This document shows positions 19,968-64,000 of a stretch of 64,000 nucleotides of DNA, one piece after another. Every line of letters starts with the position of its first letter. Positions within the stretch are counted from its first letter, which is position 1. The position numbers and the translations under genes are program-made. The notes below the pieces were generated by a model. It worked only from the letters and a program-made list of their open reading frames with translations. It did no database searches and was not told where the DNA came from. The stretch is from contig CAVXWZ010000002.1 in NCBI GenBank assembly GCA_963765575.1, forward strand, positions 512,001 through 576,000. Reading direction: 5' to 3'. The DNA is from an uncultured cyanobacterium (GTDB taxonomy: Bacteria > Cyanobacteriota > Cyanobacteriia > PCC-6307 > Cyanobiaceae).

Positions 19968-21173
19968 ATGGCGAAACGATCCCTCACCAGCCTCAGCGTC
20001 GATGAACTGCGGGGCAAACGGGTGCTGGTGCGGGTCGACTTCAACGTGCCCCAGGACGACAGCGGCGCCATCACCGATGACACCCGCATCCGCGCCGCCC
20101 TGCCCACCATCGCCCACCTGCGCGGCAGCGGCGCCCGGGTGATCCTGGCCGCCCACTACGGCCGGCCCAAGGGCCAGGTGGTGGAGGGCATGCGCCTCAC
20201 CCAGGTGGCGGCCCGGCTCAGCGACCTGCTGGGGGTGCCGGTGGTCAAGACCGACAGCTGCATCGGCCCCGATGCCGAGGCCAAGGTGGCGGCCATGGCC
20301 GACGGCGATGTGGTGCTGCTGGAGAACGTGCGCTTCTTCGCCGAGGAGGAGAAGAACGCCCCCGAATTCGCCGCCAAGCTGGCGGCCCTGGCCGAGGTGT
20401 ACGTGAACGACGCCTTCGGCGCCGCCCACCGCGCCCATGCCTCCACCGAGGGCGTGGCGCGGGCCCTGAGCCCCAGCGTGGCCGGCCAGCTGATGGAGAA
20501 GGAGCTGGCCTACCTGCAGGGTGCGATCGACGCCCCCAAGCGGCCCCTGGCGGCGATCGTGGGCGGCTCCAAGGTGAGCAGCAAGATCGGCGTGCTCGAG
20601 GCCCTGATCGACAAGTGCGACAAGGTTCTCGTCGGTGGCGGCATGATCTTCACCTTCTACAAGGCCCGCGGCCTGGCGGTGGGCAAGAGCCTCGTGGAGG
20701 AGGACAAGCTGGAGCTCGCCAGGGAGCTGGAGGCCAAGGCGAAAGCCAAGGGGGTGCAGTTCCTGCTGCCCACCGATGTGGTGCTGGCCGACAACTTCGC
20801 CCCCGACGCCAACACCCAGGTGGCGCCGATCGAGGCCATCCCCGACGGCTGGATGGGCCTGGACATCGGTCCCGACTCGGTGACGGTGTTCCAGCAGGCC
20901 CTGGCTGACTGCAAGACGGTGATCTGGAACGGGCCGATGGGGGTGTTCGAATTCGACGCCTTCGCCGCCGGCACCAACGCCATCGCCCACACCCTCGCTG
21001 AGCTCAGCGCCCAGGGCACGATCACGATCATCGGCGGCGGCGATTCCGTGGCCGCCGTGGAGAAGGTGGGCGTGGCCGACAAGATGAGCCACATCTCCAC
21101 CGGCGGCGGCGCCAGCCTGGAGCTGTTGGAGGGCAAGGTGCTGCCGGGCGTGGCCGCCCTCGACGAGGCCTGA
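19968..21173 (+). CDS. pgk: Phosphoglycerate kinase
   Basis: [47 protein letters not shown]. Confidence 0.98.
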
Positions 21174-21177
21174 GGAA

Positions 21178-21225
21178 GGGCCTGACTGGCAGGCGGGGCT
21201 TGCCCCCGCGCTGTCAGTCAGACCC
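21178..21225. terminator. Hairpin between convergent pgk and haloperoxidase genes
   Basis: GGGCCTGACTGGCAG (21178-21192) pairs nearly perfectly with CTGTCAGTCAGACCC (21211-21225); no U-tract. Confidence 0.5.
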
Positions 21226-21232
21226 TCAGCCT

Positions 21233-23002
21233 TCAACGCTGCAACGCTCCGTTTACCCTCACCTCACCGTCGCCGACACCAATCCAATCGCCATCAAAGC
21301 TGCGAAAGGTAAAGGACAACGGCTTCTCGAAATACTCAGCGGTGCGTTTCCGCAGAATCTCGATCGTGATCTGCTCTCCCAGGCGCAAACTCCTGGTGTT
21401 GTCGGTGCGCCAGTGAACGCCTCCCATGCTGCGACCCACGGCAACATTGGAAGCGAGCTTGTTGAGCTCACCTCCCACAGTGATGCGATCGGCATCAGCC
21501 CCGGAGTAGGGCTGCGGTGCCTGAAAGTCCTCACCGCCTTGATGGGCTCCCGGCGCCAGCAGCGAGAGCGGGCCAAGCAGGGGGTCACGGCGACGGGATT
21601 CGGGGAAGGCATCAAGCAGATCACCGAGCTTCTGGTCCTCGTCAAACCAGGCTTTCAGTGCGGTGACGCAAGCACCGGCAACCGTGGCATGGCCCGCTCC
21701 ATAGGCGGGGTGATTCGGAGATCCGGCTGAGAACGCCATCGGCAGAAAAAAGCTGCCGAACTCGCTGTGGATCCTGTTCGCCGCCGGCAGCACGGTCGCC
21801 ACGGGCAGGTTGTAGTCCCGCCGATCCCCAGCCACGCCTTCGCACTGCATCTGGACCATGCCCCCATAGACCTCCGGGCGACAGCGACGGTGCACCAGCC
21901 ATTTCTGCCGCCACACCACTTTCAATGCCCGGCTGGCCACCTCAGAGACGAAGGTGAGCAGATCGGGCCCCCCGAGGGTGGCGAAACCTCCCTCCCGGCT
22001 GACGCGCACTCCCCCTTTGTAGGGATTCCCATCATCCACTGGGGCGCCAATACCATCGAGGAAAAGAGCCGCATTGAAATAGGCCTGGTGGAGAGCATCT
22101 CGATTCACAAAACGAGCCAGGTCTCGCATGGTTGAGATATGCCTGACCTTGAAGTCACTGGGATAATAATCAGCCCCGGCGGCCTGACGGCTGGCATTTT
22201 GCTGGTCACCAAAGTGATTGCAAGTACCATAGTCTCTGCCAAATTTATCCTTGCCAGTATTTTGCGCGAGCAACCAATCATCATAGGTCGTCAGAAAATC
22301 TCTTTTGCGGAGATACGGCACCTGCTGCACACTGATGGTTTGGGTGCCATAGCCGACATCACGAAGGAAGAATTGGCTTACAATCGGGCCAAACTCTTCA
22401 TCATGAAGCCCACTGCGGAAGAGCGTTTCGGGCCTGATGTCCAGTTGGCCTGTACTGGTCACCGGCAGATCCAGCCCAAGCTTCAGCCCTCCCTGGGCCC
22501 GGTCCTGATCCAGCGCCTGCTGGAAGGCCTCCCGGACCTGCGTGACAGCCTCTGCCAGATTGACTGCGGAGAAATCGTTGAGCGGCAGATCGCGTAGCAG
22601 CGCCATCCAATACAGCTCAACCATCTCTGCAGCGCTGCTGACTGACGAGATCGACGGTGCTGGTGGCATCTCAAGGGTCTTTGGATCCGGCCCAAACCCC
22701 TCGCTGGCGGCAGACGCCAAAGGATTCACGAAGCGGGCTACCCCAGTGGTGAGACCAGGTTCGGCGACTGGAGAGAAGTCAGCGGGCTGAATTTCATAGC
22801 TGGGTGTGCGCTCAAACTTGACTGGCGAGCCCGCCTCAATCTCCAGGCATGTGCGCATGAAGTCTCGATACTGTGCGCGATCAACCTCGCCGTACTTATT
22901 GTGCTGAAGTGTCTTGTGGAAATTGCCAATAAAAGCAACTGCCGATGGGCCGAATTGCCTGATTTCATCGCCATTTGGCGTTGGAAATACCATGGTGGCC
23001 AC
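21233..23002 (-). CDS. Vanadium-dependent haloperoxidase (bromo/iodoperoxidase type)
   Basis: Vanadate-site motifs QKWLVHRRCRPE, PNHPAYGAGHATVAGAC and ELNKLASNVAVGRSMGGVHWRTD; also NGDE, FHKTLQHNKYG and EMVELYWMALLRD. Confidence 0.93.
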   Translation of the reverse strand: MATMVFPTPNGDEIRQFGPSAVAFIGNFHKTLQHNKYGEVDRAQYRDFMRTCLEIEAGSPVKFERTPSYEIQPADFSPVAEPGLTTGVARFVNPLASAASEGFGPDPKTLEMPPAPSISSVSSAAEMVELYWMALLRDLPLNDFSAVNLAEAVTQVREAFQQALDQDRAQGGLKLGLDLPVTSTGQLDIRPETLFRSGLHDEEFGPIVSQFFLRDVGYGTQTISVQQVPYLRKRDFLTTYDDWLLAQNTGKDKFGRDYGTCNHFGDQQNASRQAAGADYYPSDFKVRHISTMRDLARFVNRDALHQAYFNAALFLDGIGAPVDDGNPYKGGVRVSREGGFATLGGPDLLTFVSEVASRALKVVWRQKWLVHRRCRPEVYGGMVQMQCEGVAGDRRDYNLPVATVLPAANRIHSEFGSFFLPMAFSAGSPNHPAYGAGHATVAGACVTALKAWFDEDQKLGDLLDAFPESRRRDPLLGPLSLLAPGAHQGGEDFQAPQPYSGADADRITVGGELNKLASNVAVGRSMGGVHWRTDNTRSLRLGEQITIEILRKRTAEYFEKPLSFTFRSFDGDWIGVGDGEVRVNGALQR

Positions 23003-41607: not shown

Positions 41608-42939
41608 ATGACACTGCCCGGCCTACCGCAAGGGATCACCGACCCCTGCGTGCACTGCGGCTTCTGCCTGCCCAGCTGCGCCAGCTACCGGGTGCTGGGC
41701 ACGGAGATGGACTCGCCCCGGGGCCGCATCCACGCCCTCAAGGCGATCGAGGCCGGTGAGCTGCAGCTCGATGCCACGGTGGCGCAGCACTTCGACAGCT
41801 GCCTGGGCTGCCTGGCCTGCGTGAGCGCCTGCCCGTCGGGGGTGCGCTACGACCAGCTGATCGAGGCCACCCGCCCCAAACTGAACGCACCCGAGCTGCG
41901 CACGCCGGCCCAGCGCGCCCTGCGCCGACTGCTGTTCGCCCTTCTCCCCTACCCCAAACGGCTGCGGGCGGTGCTCACGCCCCTGCGGGCCTACGCCGGC
42001 ACACCGCTGCAGGCCCTGGCGCGGCGCAGCGGCCTCACCAAGCTGTTCGGGCCCCAGCTCGAGGCGATGGAGCGGCTGCTGCCGGCACTGGCGCCGGAGG
42101 CCTTCCGCGACGACCTCCCCCGGGTGGTGCCCGCCCAGGGAGAGCGGCGGGCGCGGGTGGGGCTGGTGCTGGGCTGCGTGCAGCGGCTGTTCGATCCGGC
42201 GGTCAACCGGGCGGCGCTGGAGGTGCTCAGCGCCAACGGCATCGAGGTGGTGATTCCGGCGGAGCAGGGCTGCTGCGGGGCCGCCACCCACCACCAGGGC
42301 GAACTGGAGCAGACGCGGGAGCTGGCGAGCGCCCTGGTCGAGAGCTTCGCGGCGGCGGGACCGCTGGATGCGGTGCTGGTGGCCGCCTCCGGCTGCGGCC
42401 ACACGCTCAAGCACTACGACGCGATCCTGGCCGAGGAGCCCGACTGGGCGGAGCGCGGCGCGGCCTTCGCGGGGCAGGTGCGGGACGCCCATGAGTTCCT
42501 GGCAACGCTGGGGCTGAGCGCGGCCTTCCGCTCGCGGCTGGCGCCGCTGCAGCACGCCGACGGCAGTGCGGCCAGTGCCGAGCGGCCGCTGGCGGTGGCC
42601 TACCACGACGCCTGCCACATGCTCCACGGCCAGGGCATCCGCGAGCAGCCACGCCAGCTGCTGCGCCACATCCCCCACCTGCGGCTGAAGGAGGCGGTGG
42701 AGGCGGGCGTGTGCTGCGGCAGCGCCGGCATTTACAACCTGGTGCAGCCGGTGGAGGCGGCGGAGCTGGGCCAGATCAAGGCCGCCGACCTCTGCGGCAC
42801 TGGCGCCGAGCTGGCGGCGAGTGCCAACATCGGCTGCACACTGCAGATCCGCCAGCACATGGCCAGCCAGGACCAGCCCCTGCCGGTGCTGCACCCTCTG
42901 GAGCTGCTGCAGCGCAGCTGGCAAGCGGGCAGGCGATGA
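41608..42939 (+). CDS. glcF: Glycolate oxidase iron-sulfur subunit
   Basis: CVHCGFCLPSC, SPRGRI, CLGCLACVSACPSG, CCG domains, YHDACH. Confidence 0.9.
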   Translation: MTLPGLPQGITDPCVHCGFCLPSCASYRVLGTEMDSPRGRIHALKAIEAGELQLDATVAQHFDSCLGCLACVSACPSGVRYDQLIEATRPKLNAPELRTPAQRALRRLLFALLPYPKRLRAVLTPLRAYAGTPLQALARRSGLTKLFGPQLEAMERLLPALAPEAFRDDLPRVVPAQGERRARVGLVLGCVQRLFDPAVNRAALEVLSANGIEVVIPAEQGCCGAATHHQGELEQTRELASALVESFAAAGPLDAVLVAASGCGHTLKHYDAILAEEPDWAERGAAFAGQVRDAHEFLATLGLSAAFRSRLAPLQHADGSAASAERPLAVAYHDACHMLHGQGIREQPRQLLRHIPHLRLKEAVEAGVCCGSAGIYNLVQPVEAAELGQIKAADLCGTGAELAASANIGCTLQIRQHMASQDQPLPVLHPLELLQRSWQAGRR

Positions 42940-43676
42940 GCCGCGAAGCGCCCAACCTGGCCGTGCTGATTGATTCCGACAACGCCCAGGCGGCCGTGAT
43001 CAGCGACCTGCTGGCGGAGATCGCCCAGGTGGGCACCGCCACCGTGAAACGCGCCTACGGCGACTGGACCACGCCGCAGCTGGGCAGCTGGAAGGAGGTG
43101 CTGAATGTGCACGCGATCGTGCCGGTGCAGCAGTTCAGCTACACCAGCGGCAAGAACGCCACCGATTCGGCCCTGATCATCGACGCCATGGACCTGATGC
43201 ACAGCGGCCGGGTGGAGGGCTTCTGCCTGGTGTCGTCAGACAGCGATTTCACCCGCCTGGCCACCCGCATCCGCGAGCAGGGGCTGCTGGTAATCGGCTT
43301 CGGCGAGCGCAAAACACCCAAGCCCTTCGTGGCCGCCTGCGACCGCTTTCTTTACACCGACATCCTCAAGCGCGGCGGCAGCTCCAGTGGCGGGAGCCGT
43401 CGCTCGGCCGGCGACAGCAGCGACGACAGCGCGCCACCACTGAAGCCTTTCCTGAGCGAGGCGATCATGGCTGTGACCCAGGAGGACGGCTGGGCGCCGC
43501 TGGGCATGGTGGGCAGCCTGCTGCAAAAGAACGACCCCTCCTTCGATGCCCGCAGCTATGGCTTCCGCAAACTGAGCGAGTTGGTGAAGGCCCAGACCTA
43601 CCTCAGGGTGAAGGAAGTGCCGATGGCCCAAGGCAGCCAGCAGATGCATCTGTTCGTGCAGGTGCATGGGGGGTGA
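42936..43676 (+). CDS. NYN (LabA/DUF88) domain ribonuclease with C-terminal OST-HTH/LOTUS domain
   Basis: LAVLIDSDNA, KRAYGDW, GKNATDSALIIDAMD, LVSSDSDFTRLA, FDARSYGFRKLSELV; ATGA-coupled to glcF. Confidence 0.92.
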   Translation: MSREAPNLAVLIDSDNAQAAVISDLLAEIAQVGTATVKRAYGDWTTPQLGSWKEVLNVHAIVPVQQFSYTSGKNATDSALIIDAMDLMHSGRVEGFCLVSSDSDFTRLATRIREQGLLVIGFGERKTPKPFVAACDRFLYTDILKRGGSSSGGSRRSAGDSSDDSAPPLKPFLSEAIMAVTQEDGWAPLGMVGSLLQKNDPSFDARSYGFRKLSELVKAQTYLRVKEVPMAQGSQQMHLFVQVHGG

Positions 43677-43702
43677 GGGTGGCAGGACTGGGCCGTGGAT
43701 AC

Positions 43703-43857
43703 CGGGTCCGCCTAACAAGCCAGGCCGCGGAGAGGGCAGCTTCAGACGTGTGATTGACACTGGCATTGAGGCTCTGGGAAGCGCAATGCAAAGCGGGATA
43801 GGCGGCAAGGGGCTGGCTACGCTGGTGGTTAACGGACCCGCATAATGAGCGTTAGGC
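43703..43857 (+). other. Degenerate long attC-like site
   Basis: GCCTAAC (43710-43716) and GTTAGGC (43851-43857) are complementary; CGGGTCCG (43703) pairs with CGGACCCG (43833); inner GCATTG/CAATGC stem. The two pairing registers conflict. Confidence 0.55.
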
Positions 43858-43942
43858 GGGCGAGAGCGTTACCAGCCTTCTGCAAGCCTCCCTGACGAAG
43901 CTCTAGGCTGTCAGCAACAGAGCCAAGCATTCATCTATCCGC

Positions 43943-44788
43943 ATGCCAAGTGCCACGATCAAAATATTCTTGGTTCATGGTGATCCGAAACGACTGCGAA
44001 CTGCTGAGATATCTAACTGGACCGGAAAAGCTGTCGCTGGGCCAAGAAGCGAGTTTGAAGGCGTCATCTCACGTGAAGAAGCCGAAGGCTCTGGCATCTA
44101 TCTTTTGACGGGTTCAGATCCTGAAAGTGGCAAGCCTTCAATCTACGTCGGAGAGGCCGAATGCATTCGTGATCGCCTGAAGTCTCACCTGCAAAAGGAT
44201 TTCTGGAATCAGGTTGCCTTCTTCGTCAGCAAAGACGAGAATCTTACCAAGGCTCATATCAGGCACCTGGAGGGAAAACTGATTGAGAAAGCACGCGAAG
44301 CCTCTCGAGCTGTAGTTGTTAACAATCAGAGCAGTGGCGCTCGTCTTCCTGAGTCGGACCGAGCGGATCTAGAGACTTTCCTTGAGAAAGTAAATCAACT
44401 CCTGCCTGTTCTTGGGATCGAACTCCTAGTCCCGACAGTAGCCAAACCCGAAGCCGAATTGGAAGTAGAGATGTTGTCATGTGAAATCAAGGGAGTCAAA
44501 GCACGAGGGCACCTGTCTCCGAACGGCTTTGTCATTCTTTCGGGCTCCCAGGCGGTGCTGAATGAGCGCCCATCAACGCAGAAGTATCCCTGGGCTCTGA
44601 ACATGAGGCTGAAGCTCAAGGAAGAAGGCTCTCTTGCTATCGCAACAGACGCTCTTGTCTTTACAAGAGATGTCGAGTTCACCAGTCCGAGTGCCGCGGC
44701 GGCAGTAGTCCATGGCGGACATGCCAATGGGCTTACTGCATGGAAGGATTCAGAGGGTCGCACCCTTAAGCAGGTTGAAGCCGTATAA
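43943..44788 (+). CDS. GIY-YIG nuclease with DUF4357 C-terminal domain (cassette gene)
   Basis: GIYLL...IYVGEA, RDRLKSH, HLEGKLI, VNNQ; C-terminal FTRDVEFTSPSAAAAVVHGGHANGLTAWK; atypical codon usage. Confidence 0.88.
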   Translation: MPSATIKIFLVHGDPKRLRTAEISNWTGKAVAGPRSEFEGVISREEAEGSGIYLLTGSDPESGKPSIYVGEAECIRDRLKSHLQKDFWNQVAFFVSKDENLTKAHIRHLEGKLIEKAREASRAVVVNNQSSGARLPESDRADLETFLEKVNQLLPVLGIELLVPTVAKPEAELEVEMLSCEIKGVKARGHLSPNGFVILSGSQAVLNERPSTQKYPWALNMRLKLKEEGSLAIATDALVFTRDVEFTSPSAAAAVVHGGHANGLTAWKDSEGRTLKQVEAV

Positions 44789-44869
44789 CATCCAGATACA
44801 GAAGGCAGGAGCGGAAAGCTGGCTCCTTGACTCTGATCAAGTGCCCGCTTCTGATCTGGAGCGTTAGGG
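44783..44869 (+). other. attC recombination site (87 bp)
   Basis: R'' GTATAAC contains the stop codon; TCCAGAT(A)CAGAAG pairs with CTTCTGATCTGGA leaving one extra-helical base; R' is GTTAGGG. Confidence 0.88.
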
Positions 44870-44889
44870 GTCAATAAGGCATTGAGACA

Positions 44890-45825
44890 ATGAAAGGAAA
44901 CGGAATGGACGCGCTAGAAAAGCACCTCAAGCAATGGAAGCAGATATCTGATCGATTGCACGGGCAGTTAGGGCCCGTTATGGAAGCGCAGAAGGCCATT
45001 GAGAAAGCTTTGCGCCCAACTCTTGAGTTACAGAAAGCTCTCAAATCTCCATTGGAGCCCTTCCTGGAAGAGCAAAGGATACTTCAGAAAACTTTCGAGG
45101 GTATAAAGTTACCCAGCTATCAGTTGCCTGACTTAAGTCCTTTTACAAAGGAAATTGAACAATACCAAAAATCTCTCAGTGGCATTATTAGTCCCGCCTT
45201 TGAGGAATTGCAGCGCTCTTTTGAAGAGCTACCTCCAAGAATTCAAGAGGCTCTGCTATTGCTGGCACAACACGGTTGGTATTTAGATTTCAATATGCCA
45301 CTTTCAAGTCTCTGGGAAATTAAGAAGGCAATATCCAGTGGCGAGATCGAAGAGGTAGAAGAGGCGCTAGTAGAATATTTTGAAGGTCAACTGGATGAAA
45401 TAGAAAAATCAATTAACGCTCAATTCCCACATAGATCGCATATCATAAGCTCTGCTGTTGAGGCGCATCGTAACGACGAATACTTCCTGTCAATCCCCGT
45501 GTTGCTGGCGCAAACAGACGGAGTATGCAAAGAAGTTGTAGATCAGTACTTATTTATGAAAAAAGATAGGAAGCCACGAACTGCTATTTATGTTGAGCAA
45601 GTAGCGGCGGACACTTTTAAAGCTGCACTATTAAGTCCATTGGCGGCCAGTTCACCAATAAGTGCCTCTGAGCACGAACGTGAAGCGGGTTTTGATCTTC
45701 TCAATAGGCATATGGTCCTGCACGGTGAGTCATTGGACTACGGAAATAAAACAAACAGTTTAAAAGCGATTTCGCTTATGAATTACGTATCGCAGGTACT
45801 GAAGCCAGATGCAGACTACCCCTAA
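44890..45825 (+). CDS. Hypothetical cassette protein: N-terminal helical region and C-terminal HEPN-like motif
   Basis: 311 aa, strongly AT-rich codons, LNRHMVLHGE (RxxxxH) near the C-terminus. Confidence 0.8.
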   Translation: MKGNGMDALEKHLKQWKQISDRLHGQLGPVMEAQKAIEKALRPTLELQKALKSPLEPFLEEQRILQKTFEGIKLPSYQLPDLSPFTKEIEQYQKSLSGIISPAFEELQRSFEELPPRIQEALLLLAQHGWYLDFNMPLSSLWEIKKAISSGEIEEVEEALVEYFEGQLDEIEKSINAQFPHRSHIISSAVEAHRNDEYFLSIPVLLAQTDGVCKEVVDQYLFMKKDRKPRTAIYVEQVAADTFKAALLSPLAASSPISASEHEREAGFDLLNRHMVLHGESLDYGNKTNSLKAISLMNYVSQVLKPDADYP

Positions 45826-45900
45826 CAAGAACGTAAACTCGGACGCATTTTTTATTCGCTGCGCTCACTACAAATGCGCCGGTTACGGCAAGCGTTACAC
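45820..45900 (+). other. attC recombination site (81 bp)
   Basis: R'' CCCTAAC contains the stop codon; CGTAA(A)C(T)CGG(A)CGCATTT pairs with AAATGCGCCGGTTACG leaving extra-helical bases; R' is GTTACAC. Confidence 0.92.
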
Positions 45901-45919
45901 TTACCAAAGGAAGAGACAT

Positions 45920-46395
45920 ATGAAGATTTTACTGGTCGGCGCAACAGGCACGATTGGAACTGCTGTAGCACATAAACTCGAAGCGCGGCACGAGGTCTTG
46001 TGCGCTAGCCATACCGGTGGGGCGCTCACGGTGGACCTAGCAGACCCTCTCATGGGCCAGGTGAACCTTGTCCGCCTCGGCATCGAGCTCGTCGCCAACG
46101 GGGGCTCCTTCACACTGACGAGCGGGATTGCGAGTCGGCAGCCGATGCCCGGCGGTGCGGTGATCAGCTTGGTAATGCCGGGCTGGAAGGATTTATACGC
46201 GCGGCGGCATTGGAGCTCCCCCGTGGTGTCCGTGTCAATGCAGTCGCTCCCGGTTGGGTGCGGGAGACGCTCGTGGCGATGAAGGCGGACCCCAGTTCTG
46301 GGGTGCCAGCGGCGCAGGTGGCGCAGACCTATGTGAGGTCGGTCGAGGGACTCATGACCGGACAAGTCCTCGATGCAATCGCTGGAGCTGGCTAA
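45920..46395 (+). pseudogene. Short-chain dehydrogenase/reductase cassette gene with an internal deletion and a frameshift
   Basis: MKILLVGATGTIG...VDLADP joins directly to LMGQVNLVR; frameshift near 46174; then ELPRGVRVNAVAPGWV...TGQVLD; stop lies in GGCTAAC. Confidence 0.85.
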
Positions 46396-46515
46396 CCCAT
46401 CGTTCGAGGTGAAGAAGATGGGCACATGTCACTGCGAAACTTCCCGGAAATGGGGCGCTGGCCCTGCAGGCACGCCCCGCCAGGGCCAGCAGTGACCTCA
46501 ACGTCGACATCAACA
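46390..46515 (+). other. attC site with a degenerate R' box
   Basis: R'' GGCTAAC; CGTT(C)GAGGT (46401) pairs with ACCTCAACG (46495); inner stem GCTGGCCCTG/CAGGGCCAGC; ATC stands where GTT is expected. Confidence 0.65.
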
Positions 46516-46800
46516 GCATGTGTGCGGGTCTTGCCGTGATCAATCAGGAGCTCGGCGCCACGGCCGCCCGGGCACACCGATGGGTCGATGCATGCAGAAG
46601 GACCTGCTGATCACGGCGGCGCAATACGGGGCGCTGGTCTGATCGTGCAATCTCAGCCGCGCCATGGGGCGTTCTCTGGCTGCAGCAACGCCGCGAGGCG
46701 GCGCTCCAGGGCGGGCTGGGGCTGCCGGTCGGCCTGGCCAGCCCCCAGCAGCCCCCGGCAGCAACGAGGATGGCAGCGGTCTTTCGCCACGCCCGCTCCC

Positions 46801-63560: not shown

Positions 63561-63634
<74 letters not shown>

Positions 63635-63691
63635 AGGAACCGGGCTGACGCCCAGCACTTGGTCATTATCCGCCACAGGTGATGATGGGCT

Positions 63692-64000
63692 GGAAAGCAG
63701 GCGAGGTGATCGCGATCAGGGGGCTGGCGGTCTTCGGGCCGCCGCTCCACCTGGTTGAGGAAAGTCCGGGCTCCCCAATGGCCAGGCTTGCTGGGTAACG
63801 CCCAGTGCGGGTGACCGTGAGGACAGTGCCACAGAAACACACCGCCGATGGCCCGGAGGCTCGCCTCCGCGGCACAGGCAAGGGTGCAAGGGTGCGGTAA
63901 GAGCGCACCAGCAGCATCGAGAGGTGCTGGCTCGGTAAACCCCGGCCGGGAGCAAGGCCCAGGGACAACGGTTGGCCATGACACCCGTCCCGCCACAAGT
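63692..64000 (+). ncRNA. rnpB: RNase P RNA (type A), 3' end beyond the window
   Basis: GAGGAAAGTCCGGGCT, AGTGCCACAGAAA, GGTAAGAGCGCACC, GGTAAACCCC...GAGCAAG. Confidence 0.96.

What the first reader, a model, noticed from the sequence alone, without database searches (positions are those of the whole stretch)
43703..46639. Integron cassette array (CALIN) in a picocyanobacterial core region, carrying predicted nucleases
Seen: three same-strand, AT-richer genes whose TAA stops each sit inside an R''-type box (GTATAAC, CCCTAAC, GGCTAAC). Each is followed by an imperfect palindrome with extra-helical bases, and two of these end in a GTTA core. The second cassette starts with GTTAGGG (44863) and ends with its exact complement CCCTAAC (45820), as expected for a unit integrated from a circle. 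No tyrosine recombinase is present in the 64 kb. Known: this is attC architecture, integrons are little studied in cyanobacteria, and cassette arrays can hold anti-phage genes. Inference: an orphan array acquired by IntI-mediated events that serves as a small defence locus.
Basis: partly seen in the sequence, partly recalled or inferred. Interest (0 to 1): 0.85.

Follow-up and report, generated by a model that had tools for sequence, protein, structure and literature searches.

The report
Spare integron docking site in picocyanobacteria
This small array of captured genes is a real integron cassette array that has no recombinase gene beside it but keeps its own docking site, and related cyanobacteria carry many such spare sites that still appear to take in new DNA, probably through a recombinase encoded elsewhere in the chromosome.

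Summary
The array is real: two full attC sites (44783-44869, 45820-45900) and one half site (46390). It is not a plain orphan. The genome encodes an intact IntI 230 kb away. The array starts with a ~165-bp three-box leader (43695-43854), the attI region that follows intI in this genus. All four arrays of the genome begin with it; only one has intI. The leader occurs in 27 of 31 congeners and 59 of 140 family genomes, up to 19 copies each; 58 of 86 inspected copies lack intI. Signs that intI-less copies still load DNA: a gene-less mini-cassette is 100% identical at intI-linked and intI-less leaders within single genomes, and an environmental contig shows this same leader with another first occupant (that element has its own recombinase). 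Cargo: an untested defence candidate (PDC-S14), a possible HEPN RNase and a broken dehydrogenase. No recombination was tested. The scan noted orphan attI heads before in other genomes; my paper searches did not find them described.

The parts
42936..43676 (+). Host NYN + OST-HTH gene; left flank, not a cassette
   Evidence: Pfam PF01936 and PF12872; found at E <= 1e-100 in 17 of 24 congeners, 85-91% identity; homology with empty alleles ends at its stop codon
43695..43854 (+). Three-box attI leader, homologous to the region between the intI stop and the first cassette in complete integrons of this genus. Box 1 43698-43715, box 2 43797-43805, box 3 43828-43845, crossover G|TT at 43851/43852
   Evidence: 47.7 bits, E 7.9e-14, only hit in the window with model R1 built from 18 intI-linked leaders; 45 bits with an HMM that excludes this genome; box positions; alignment
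43851..44863 (+). Cassette 1; ORF 43943-44788 (281 aa), GIY-YIG-like motifs plus DUF4357, PADLOC candidate PDC-S14
   Evidence: PF14267; PDC-S14 E 3e-101; motifs by pattern (GIY-YIG label recalled); the six closest homologues (81-98%) each end in an attC and run into a different next sequence
44783..44869 (+). attC1, of a family also found in the intI-linked array and on contig C11
   Evidence: (80% identity to C2:327436)
44863..45894 (+). Cassette 2; ORF 44890-45825 (311 aa), helical, invariant R-H-x3-H motif (R273, H278), possible HEPN RNase
   Evidence: homologues up to 96%, 72-89% in named gammaproteobacteria; invariant columns in 60 sequences; weak fold matches Z 3-5 that include several HEPN domains; no Pfam or PADLOC hit; boundaries
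45820..45900 (+). attC2, a type that travels with cassette 2 in metagenome contigs
   Evidence: weak scores
45894..46409 (+). Decayed cassette 3: short-chain dehydrogenase pseudogene (45920-46395) with the left half of an attC (46390-46409)
   Evidence: PRK07578 matches in two pieces; comparison with an intact relative; folds
46458..46636 (.). Remnant of a host-type gene; right flank of the array
   Evidence: 72-80% DNA matches 3-11 kb downstream of NYN in G002, G009, G012, G019

Best explanation
The window holds a satellite integron platform: an attI region plus cassette array with no intI beside it. Shown: the array begins with the same three-box leader that follows intI in this genus, cassettes join it at G|TT, and such intI-less leaders are the majority in these genomes. 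Inferred: the platform arrived behind the NYN gene as a whole intI-attI unit and lost intI by deletion; the boxes are IntI-binding sites; and the intact IntI encoded 230 kb away acts on it in trans, adding cassettes at the leader end while the far end decays. One enzyme would thus serve four scattered capture sites in this genome.
For: Intact IntI at C2:324869-325849: 464 bits against a cut-off of 265, catalytic motifs present. Leader behind 18 of 20 genus intI loci read to the GTT; one is split by an IS and one cut by a contig end. An HMM from relatives' intI-linked leaders finds exactly four full copies in this genome, each heading an array. 86 leaders in 12 genomes: 17 with near-full intI, 9 with fragments, 58 with none in 1.4-2 kb, 2 with too little upstream DNA; 50 of 53 intI-less ones are followed by DNA under 60% GC, mean 0.50 against 0.70 upstream. 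At one shared locus (behind a hydrogenase large-subunit gene; label recalled) 0 of 23 genomes have intI, 15 have a leader at >= 18 bits, and 13 readable first positions show 12 different starts; boxes are 77% and spacers 47% identical in 10 of them. A 138-bp gene-less cassette: 22 of 28 copies lie directly behind a leader hit; it is 100% identical between an intI-linked and an intI-less leader in G008 and G392, and between two intI-less leaders in G012, against 75-94% between genomes. Run X2 has a contig matching 43684-43853 with one difference that continues into a different element at the GTT. Polarity: cassettes 1 and 2 intact, cassette 3 decayed; runs X2 and X8 show a further deletion there.
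Against: No recombination, binding or expression data. No cassette is shared between the four arrays of this genome, and it has no copy of the mini-cassette. The alternative first occupant at this leader encodes its own tyrosine recombinase and an IS91-type transposase, so it shows that the site is used, not that IntI uses it; that contig is 195 nt and starts 8 bp after the NYN stop, so its locus is inferred. Different first cassettes could also come from uneven loss from old arrays. The four leaders of this genome are only 49-59% identical, so one IntI may not recognise all. Leaders were found with a model weighted to the boxes, which inflates box conservation. No intI remnant lies next to this leader, no relative has intI at this locus (0 of 17 in 1.5 kb), and the motif upstream of intI is not enriched before intI-less leaders (0 of 58 against 8 of 174 controls), so loss by deletion is inferred only from the 9 fragment-bearing loci. 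No sigma-70-like promoter match in 43600-46800 (0 found, 1.5 expected). Genomes are related and are not independent trials.
Confidence: 0.7

Rival explanations
1. Dead remnant. A complete integron once sat here, lost intI, and the leader and array are now frozen and decaying; differences between strains come from deletion and homologous exchange.
For: Cassette 3 and its attC are broken and more is deleted in wild strains. 9 of 86 leaders have decayed intI beside them and this genome has another intI fragment on C1. Some leaders have a degenerate core or IS insertions (G002 at this locus). Frequent intI pseudogenes are known (PMC2426708, passages).
Against: Identical mini-cassettes at intI-linked and intI-less leaders within genomes; a different occupant at exactly G|TT of this leader; cassettes 1 and 2 have homologues at 98% (partial) and 96%; box conservation and 12 different starts in 13 at an intI-less locus.
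Confidence: 0.18
2. The intI-less leaders are used only by selfish elements with their own enzymes (the tyrosine-recombinase plus IS91-type unit, which might also move the mini-cassette), not by IntI.
For: That unit's start occupies the first position at 9 of 86 leaders and at this leader in run X2; it encodes PF00589 and PF04986/PF14319 proteins.
Against: The mini-cassette has a canonical attC with an R'' that complements its own start; most intI-less leaders are followed by ordinary cassette-like genes.
Confidence: 0.07
3. Plain CALIN: a fragment split from the main array by rearrangement, or cassettes inserted one after another at a secondary attG site.
For: Shares an attC family with the main array; both routes are published proposals (PMC4889954; 10.1101/2022.09.11.507474; passages).
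Against: Neither route explains a full 165-bp leader at the head of the array, of a lineage only 57% identical to the genome's intI-linked leader, nor the same arrangement at two more loci in the genome.
Confidence: 0.04

Closest known systems
[quoted passage not shown] 2016, PMC4889954; passages read)
   Same: At least two attC sites, no intI nearby, IntI elsewhere in the genome (true of half of CALINs in that paper).
   Different: CALINs are defined without regard to attI, which the paper says is unknown for most integrons and cannot be searched for. This array keeps an attI region and appears to accept new elements; the paper discusses CALINs mainly as cassette donors.
[quoted passage not shown]
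   Same: The genome's complete integron has intI transcribed towards attI; that paper places a Synechococcus IntI near the Treponema branch.
   Different: That paper states one attI per integron and long single arrays. Here there are several short arrays at many loci, most without intI, and a ~165-bp three-box leader.
SALIN and attG insertion (10.1101/2022.09.11.507474; passages read)
   Same: Cassettes scattered at several chromosomal sites in a genome with IntI.
   Different: attG sites are described as unlike attI in sequence and structure; here each scattered array has a full attI-type leader.
Xanthomonas CALINs at conserved secondary loci (10.1101/2025.06.18.660453; passages read)
   Same: CALINs recur at fixed loci across species, apart from the intI locus.
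   Different: The passages seen do not report an attI at those CALINs; intI there has one locus, whereas here it occupies at least seven.
PADLOC candidate PDC-S14 and integron-borne anti-phage cassettes (PMC10855318, passages; 10.1101/2024.07.02.601686, search listing only)
   Same: Cassette 1 matches PDC-S14 over its full length.
   Different: PDC systems are not experimentally validated; only one of three cassettes has such a match.

Membership tests
CALIN | [quoted passage not shown] | tested here: met
   attC1 by covariance model and fold; attC2 by covariation and cassette boundaries. IntegronFinder itself was not available.
CALIN | No intI nearby | tested here: met
   No IntI-profile hit in the 64 kb; nearest intI 230 kb away
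Complete integron (at this locus) | intI adjacent to attI and array | tested here: not met
   NYN gene ends where intI would end; met at C2:324869-328400
attI site | Homologous to the sequence between intI and the first cassette in complete integrons | tested here: met
attI site | Different cassettes join at one G|TT point | tested here: met
   This leader: (one contig). Family:
attI site | Bound and recombined by IntI | not testable with these tools
   needs a recombination or binding assay
attI platform | Pc promoter driving the cassettes | tested here: inconclusive
   no sigma-70 consensus match; cyanobacterial promoters often lack a -35 (recalled); no RNA run listed
attG / SALIN insertion | Cassette joined to plain host DNA with no att site | tested here: not met
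   a full leader precedes cassette 1
Treponema-type (same-direction) integron | intI transcribed towards attI and cassettes | tested here: met
   genome's complete integron and 20 genus loci; common ancestry with Treponema IntI not tested
PDC-S14 defence candidate (cassette 1) | Full-length profile match | tested here: met
   E 3e-101, residues 3-280
PDC-S14 defence candidate (cassette 1) | Anti-phage activity | not testable with these tools
   needs phage challenge
HEPN RNase (cassette 2) | Conserved Rx4-6H motif with a polar residue after R (PMC3710099, passages) | tested here: met
   R273 and H278 invariant, H274 nearly so, in 60 homologues
HEPN RNase (cassette 2) | HEPN helical fold | tested here: inconclusive
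   model pLDDT 57; best Z 5.2 (Roquin N-terminus), HEPN entries Z 3.2-3.8, below the level the tool calls reliable; Foldseek nothing at E <= 0.001

The most novel reading that the evidence does not exclude
Larger-genome picocyanobacteria run a distributed integron: one or a few IntI genes serve up to about 19 chromosomal attI platforms that selection keeps after, or without, a linked intI. The three-box leader may itself move to new sites as an intI-free module (three unrelated leaders sit right behind the same NYN gene in three genomes, and a fourth sits inverted nearby), and a gene-less promoter-like mini-cassette and a recombinase-transposase element compete for its first position.
Probability: 0.25. 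Interest if true: 0.85.

Novelty: new variant of a known kind. Interest (0 to 1): 0.62.

Why it matters
The origin and status of CALINs is open: the paper that defined them says attI cannot be searched for in most integrons and that loss of intI, rearrangement and secondary insertion are hard to tell apart (PMC4889954). Here attI is recognisable across a family, so each CALIN can be classed and the question tested directly. If the reading holds, many integrase-less arrays are live capture sites, gene-capture capacity in freshwater-type picocyanobacteria is several times what intI counts suggest, and these abundant primary producers take up toxin-antitoxin and candidate defence genes shared with Proteobacteria at many chromosomal points.

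Tried and rejected
1. Reading 43710-43857 as a long attC (GCCTAAC ... GTTAGGC): no L-box hairpin and it aligns with intI-linked leaders instead. 2. CCTCAAC at 46497 as the L' box of the third site: it lies inside a host-gene remnant. 3. A trace of the intI upstream motif at the NYN junction: a 19-mer match with 3 mismatches occurs 5 times elsewhere in the genome, and the motif scores >= 6 bits before 0 of 58 intI-less leaders against 8 of 174 control windows. 4. An ancestral platform at this locus: leaders behind NYN in G000, G002 and G019 are 51-54% identical, the all-pairs mean is 54%, against 61% at the shared hydrogenase locus. 5. An exact core pattern from this genome: 1 match in 60 relatives, too narrow. 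6. My pattern scanner for attC: first version mis-set, 0 hits; corrected version gave 9 hits genome-wide against 5 and 8 in two shuffles, so it is not significant alone and misses many sites; only 7 of 75 cassette-1 homologue loci passed it (0 controls). 7. Rfam: nothing in the region. 8. Cassette 2: single-sequence fold failed; Pfam, PADLOC, NCBIfam, Foldseek and the protein atlas named no family. 9. Cassette 1: no solved relative. 10. No RNA holder listed. 11. Plasmid search with cassette 3 gave two short matches only. 12. The IntI tree shows several IntI clades at one locus and one clade at several loci; it gives no direction or mechanism. 13. PMC2426708 does not mention Synechococcus in its main text; my recollection that it does was not confirmed.
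Full report
Observation. attC1 (44783-44869) folds as an attC (z = -3.8) and scores 76 bits with a covariance model built from 10 other sites of its family. attC2 (45820-45900) scores poorly alone (z = -1.7; 10.8 bits), but 7 of 27 pairs covary across 6 homologous sites; 7 of 9 metagenome homologues of the gene are preceded by a GTTAGGG or near-identical start (read by eye); and one environmental assembly holds the cassette with ends at 44863 and 45897 in another context. The third site is a left half only. Its gene is a broken short-chain dehydrogenase, and 46458-46636 is a remnant of a host-type gene. In the 8 closest of 20 relatives fetched, NYN and the transglutaminase-like gene are adjacent. 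A contig from run X1 spans 43545-43898 with one difference, so the NYN-leader-cassette junction exists outside this assembly.

The genome. It encodes one full IntI at C2:324869-325849 and a fragment on C1. Cassettes follow intI in the same direction: mazEF, a PemK-type pair and DUF1349. Two more arrays lie on C11, one with hicAB. The four arrays share attC families and each begins with a similar leader: a box about 135 bp before the crossover, a half box, and a box ending 5 bp before GTTAG. In a leave-one-out matrix scan the left-out site ranked next after the three training sites each time. The core looks like an Xer-type arm-spacer-arm site; that likeness is recalled, not tested.

What the leader is. 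IntI occurs in 23 of 31 congeners, at seven or more different loci. All 20 genus intI loci fetched are followed by the leader: 18 read through to GTT, one split by an IS, one cut by a contig end; the 10 intI loci from other families show none. A model built from 18 intI-linked leaders, none of them a satellite, hits the window once, at 43695-43854, E 7.9e-14. It gives 150 matches in this genome and 27 of 31 congeners and none in 29 more distant genomes. In a wider draw it hits 59 of 140 family genomes and 16 of 33 genera, up to 19 copies. I fetched 82 of the 83 matches in 11 good genomes; one fell under my 18-bit cut and one extra appeared, giving 86 with the four here. Of these 17 have a near-full intI upstream, 9 a fragment, 58 none in at least 1.4 kb, and 2 too little sequence. 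Low-GC DNA follows 50 of 53 intI-less leaders with 1 kb of downstream sequence.

Are the intI-less leaders in use? Three lines bear on it. First, behind a hydrogenase large-subunit gene (label recalled) 23 of 24 genomes had downstream sequence: none has intI in it, 15 have a leader at 18 bits or more, 4 a weak one and 4 none; 13 readable first positions show 12 different starts. Boxes are 77% and spacers 47% identical in 10 of them, with the bias that the model favours boxes. Second, a 138-bp gene-less cassette with a canonical attC has 28 copies in my two searches, the wider of which scored at most two per genome; 22 lie directly behind a leader hit, 2 to 3 inside arrays, and the rest behind leader-like ends with no hit. 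The complete genome G012 has four copies, all at leaders. Copies are 100% identical between an intI-linked and intI-less leaders in G008 and G392 and between two intI-less leaders in G012; other within-genome pairs are 87-99%, and copies in other genomes are 75-94% identical to the G012 query. Identity starts at G|TT while the leaders and next cassettes differ, which fits site-specific insertion better than gene conversion. Third, run X2 has a 195-nt contig that matches 43684-43853 with one difference and continues into the start of a different element. That element encodes a tyrosine recombinase and an IS91-type transposase, so it may not need IntI. Against activity: no cassette is shared among this genome's arrays, the mini-cassette is absent here, and the four leaders are only 49-59% identical.

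How the platform got here. Leaders sit right behind NYN in 2 of 17 relatives and inverted 3.3 kb away in a third. They are no more alike than random pairs, so arrivals were probably independent. Nine loci with intI fragments suggest birth of whole intI-attI units followed by loss of intI, but no remnant survives here and the test for the intI upstream motif was negative. The route of arrival is not resolved. The IntI tree mixes clades and loci.

Cargo. Cassette 1 matches PDC-S14, a class described as not experimentally validated (PMC10855318, passages). Its six closest homologues are cassettes with different neighbours, one directly behind a leader. Cassette 2 has close homologues in Gammaproteobacteria, an invariant R-H-x3-H motif of the HEPN type (PMC3710099, passages), and only weak fold support. 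Defence is plausible for two cassettes and shown for none.

Relation to what is known. The array meets the CALIN definition (PMC4889954, passages). That paper notes that attI is unknown for most integrons and lists loss of intI, rearrangement and secondary insertion as origins. In-trans excision from CALINs is stated in PMC9668308 and 10.1101/2025.06.18.660453 (passages). An engineered attI served in trans is described in 10.64898/2026.03.17.712381 (passages). Same-direction intI is known from Treponema (PMC3607928, passages), attG insertion from 10.1101/2022.09.11.507474 (passages), promoter activity in gene-less cassettes from 10.1101/2023.11.21.568050 (listing only). Searches for integron + Synechococcus + attC, integron + Cyanobium, CALIN + attI + in trans, integron + cyanobacteria + IntegronFinder + CALIN, 'multiple attI' and integron + IS91 + attI listed no title or abstract on natural multi-copy intI-less attI platforms or on picocyanobacterial integrons. 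I opened only some of the listed papers, and the library lacks most subscription journals. Earlier notes of this scan report orphan attI heads in other genomes. I recorded my reading before seeing them and did not test their claims; they are not independent support.

Verdict. A real array and a new variant of a known kind: an attI-headed CALIN, one of many in its family, with comparative evidence of continued use. The mechanism in trans is inferred (0.7). Interest 0.62.

Noticed in passing
G000:C2:324869-328400 (L003:12870-16400): Complete integron with intI in the same direction as its cassettes (mazEF, PemK-type pair, DUF1349); the same intI locus is in G008 and G011 at 93-94% identity.
   Followed up: yes
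G000:C11:393642-395730 and C11:664050-665500: Two more intI-less leaders with arrays, one with hicAB and a second toxin-antitoxin-like pair; the first locus is shared by most of the genus.
   Followed up: partly
L098:2220-2358 and 27 other copies: 138-bp gene-less cassette that prefers the first position at leaders; a conserved TAnnnT hexamer in its 56-bp body suggests a promoter cassette (by eye, untested).
   Followed up: partly
L162:1905-4090 (minus strand); run X2 at window 43853: Element with a tyrosine recombinase and an IS91-type (Y2) transposase whose start sits at the leader's GTT in 9 of 86 leaders; often breaks assemblies; may target attI with its own enzymes.
   Followed up: partly
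25-45 bp upstream of intI in 18 of 18 loci scanned: Conserved 10-bp motif GG(C/G)AAnnCTG at the host-integron boundary; promoter, operator or recombination site unknown.
   Followed up: partly
leader boxes in L021, L026, L028 against L029, L031: The three boxes within a leader vary together by lineage, as if matched to each IntI's specificity.
   Followed up: no
G000:C1:347582-347860: intI fragment at a locus where six relatives have a full intI; here no leader was detected.
   Followed up: partly
G000:C2:101212, C2:386135, C11:351060: Three identical copies of a 35-bp sequence in low-GC islands, probably IS ends.
   Followed up: no
window 21001-23000: A second low-GC stretch (55% in 22001-23000) with no attC or leader hit.
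   Followed up: no
window 63561-64000: tRNA gene on the minus strand next to the RNase P RNA gene.
   Followed up: no
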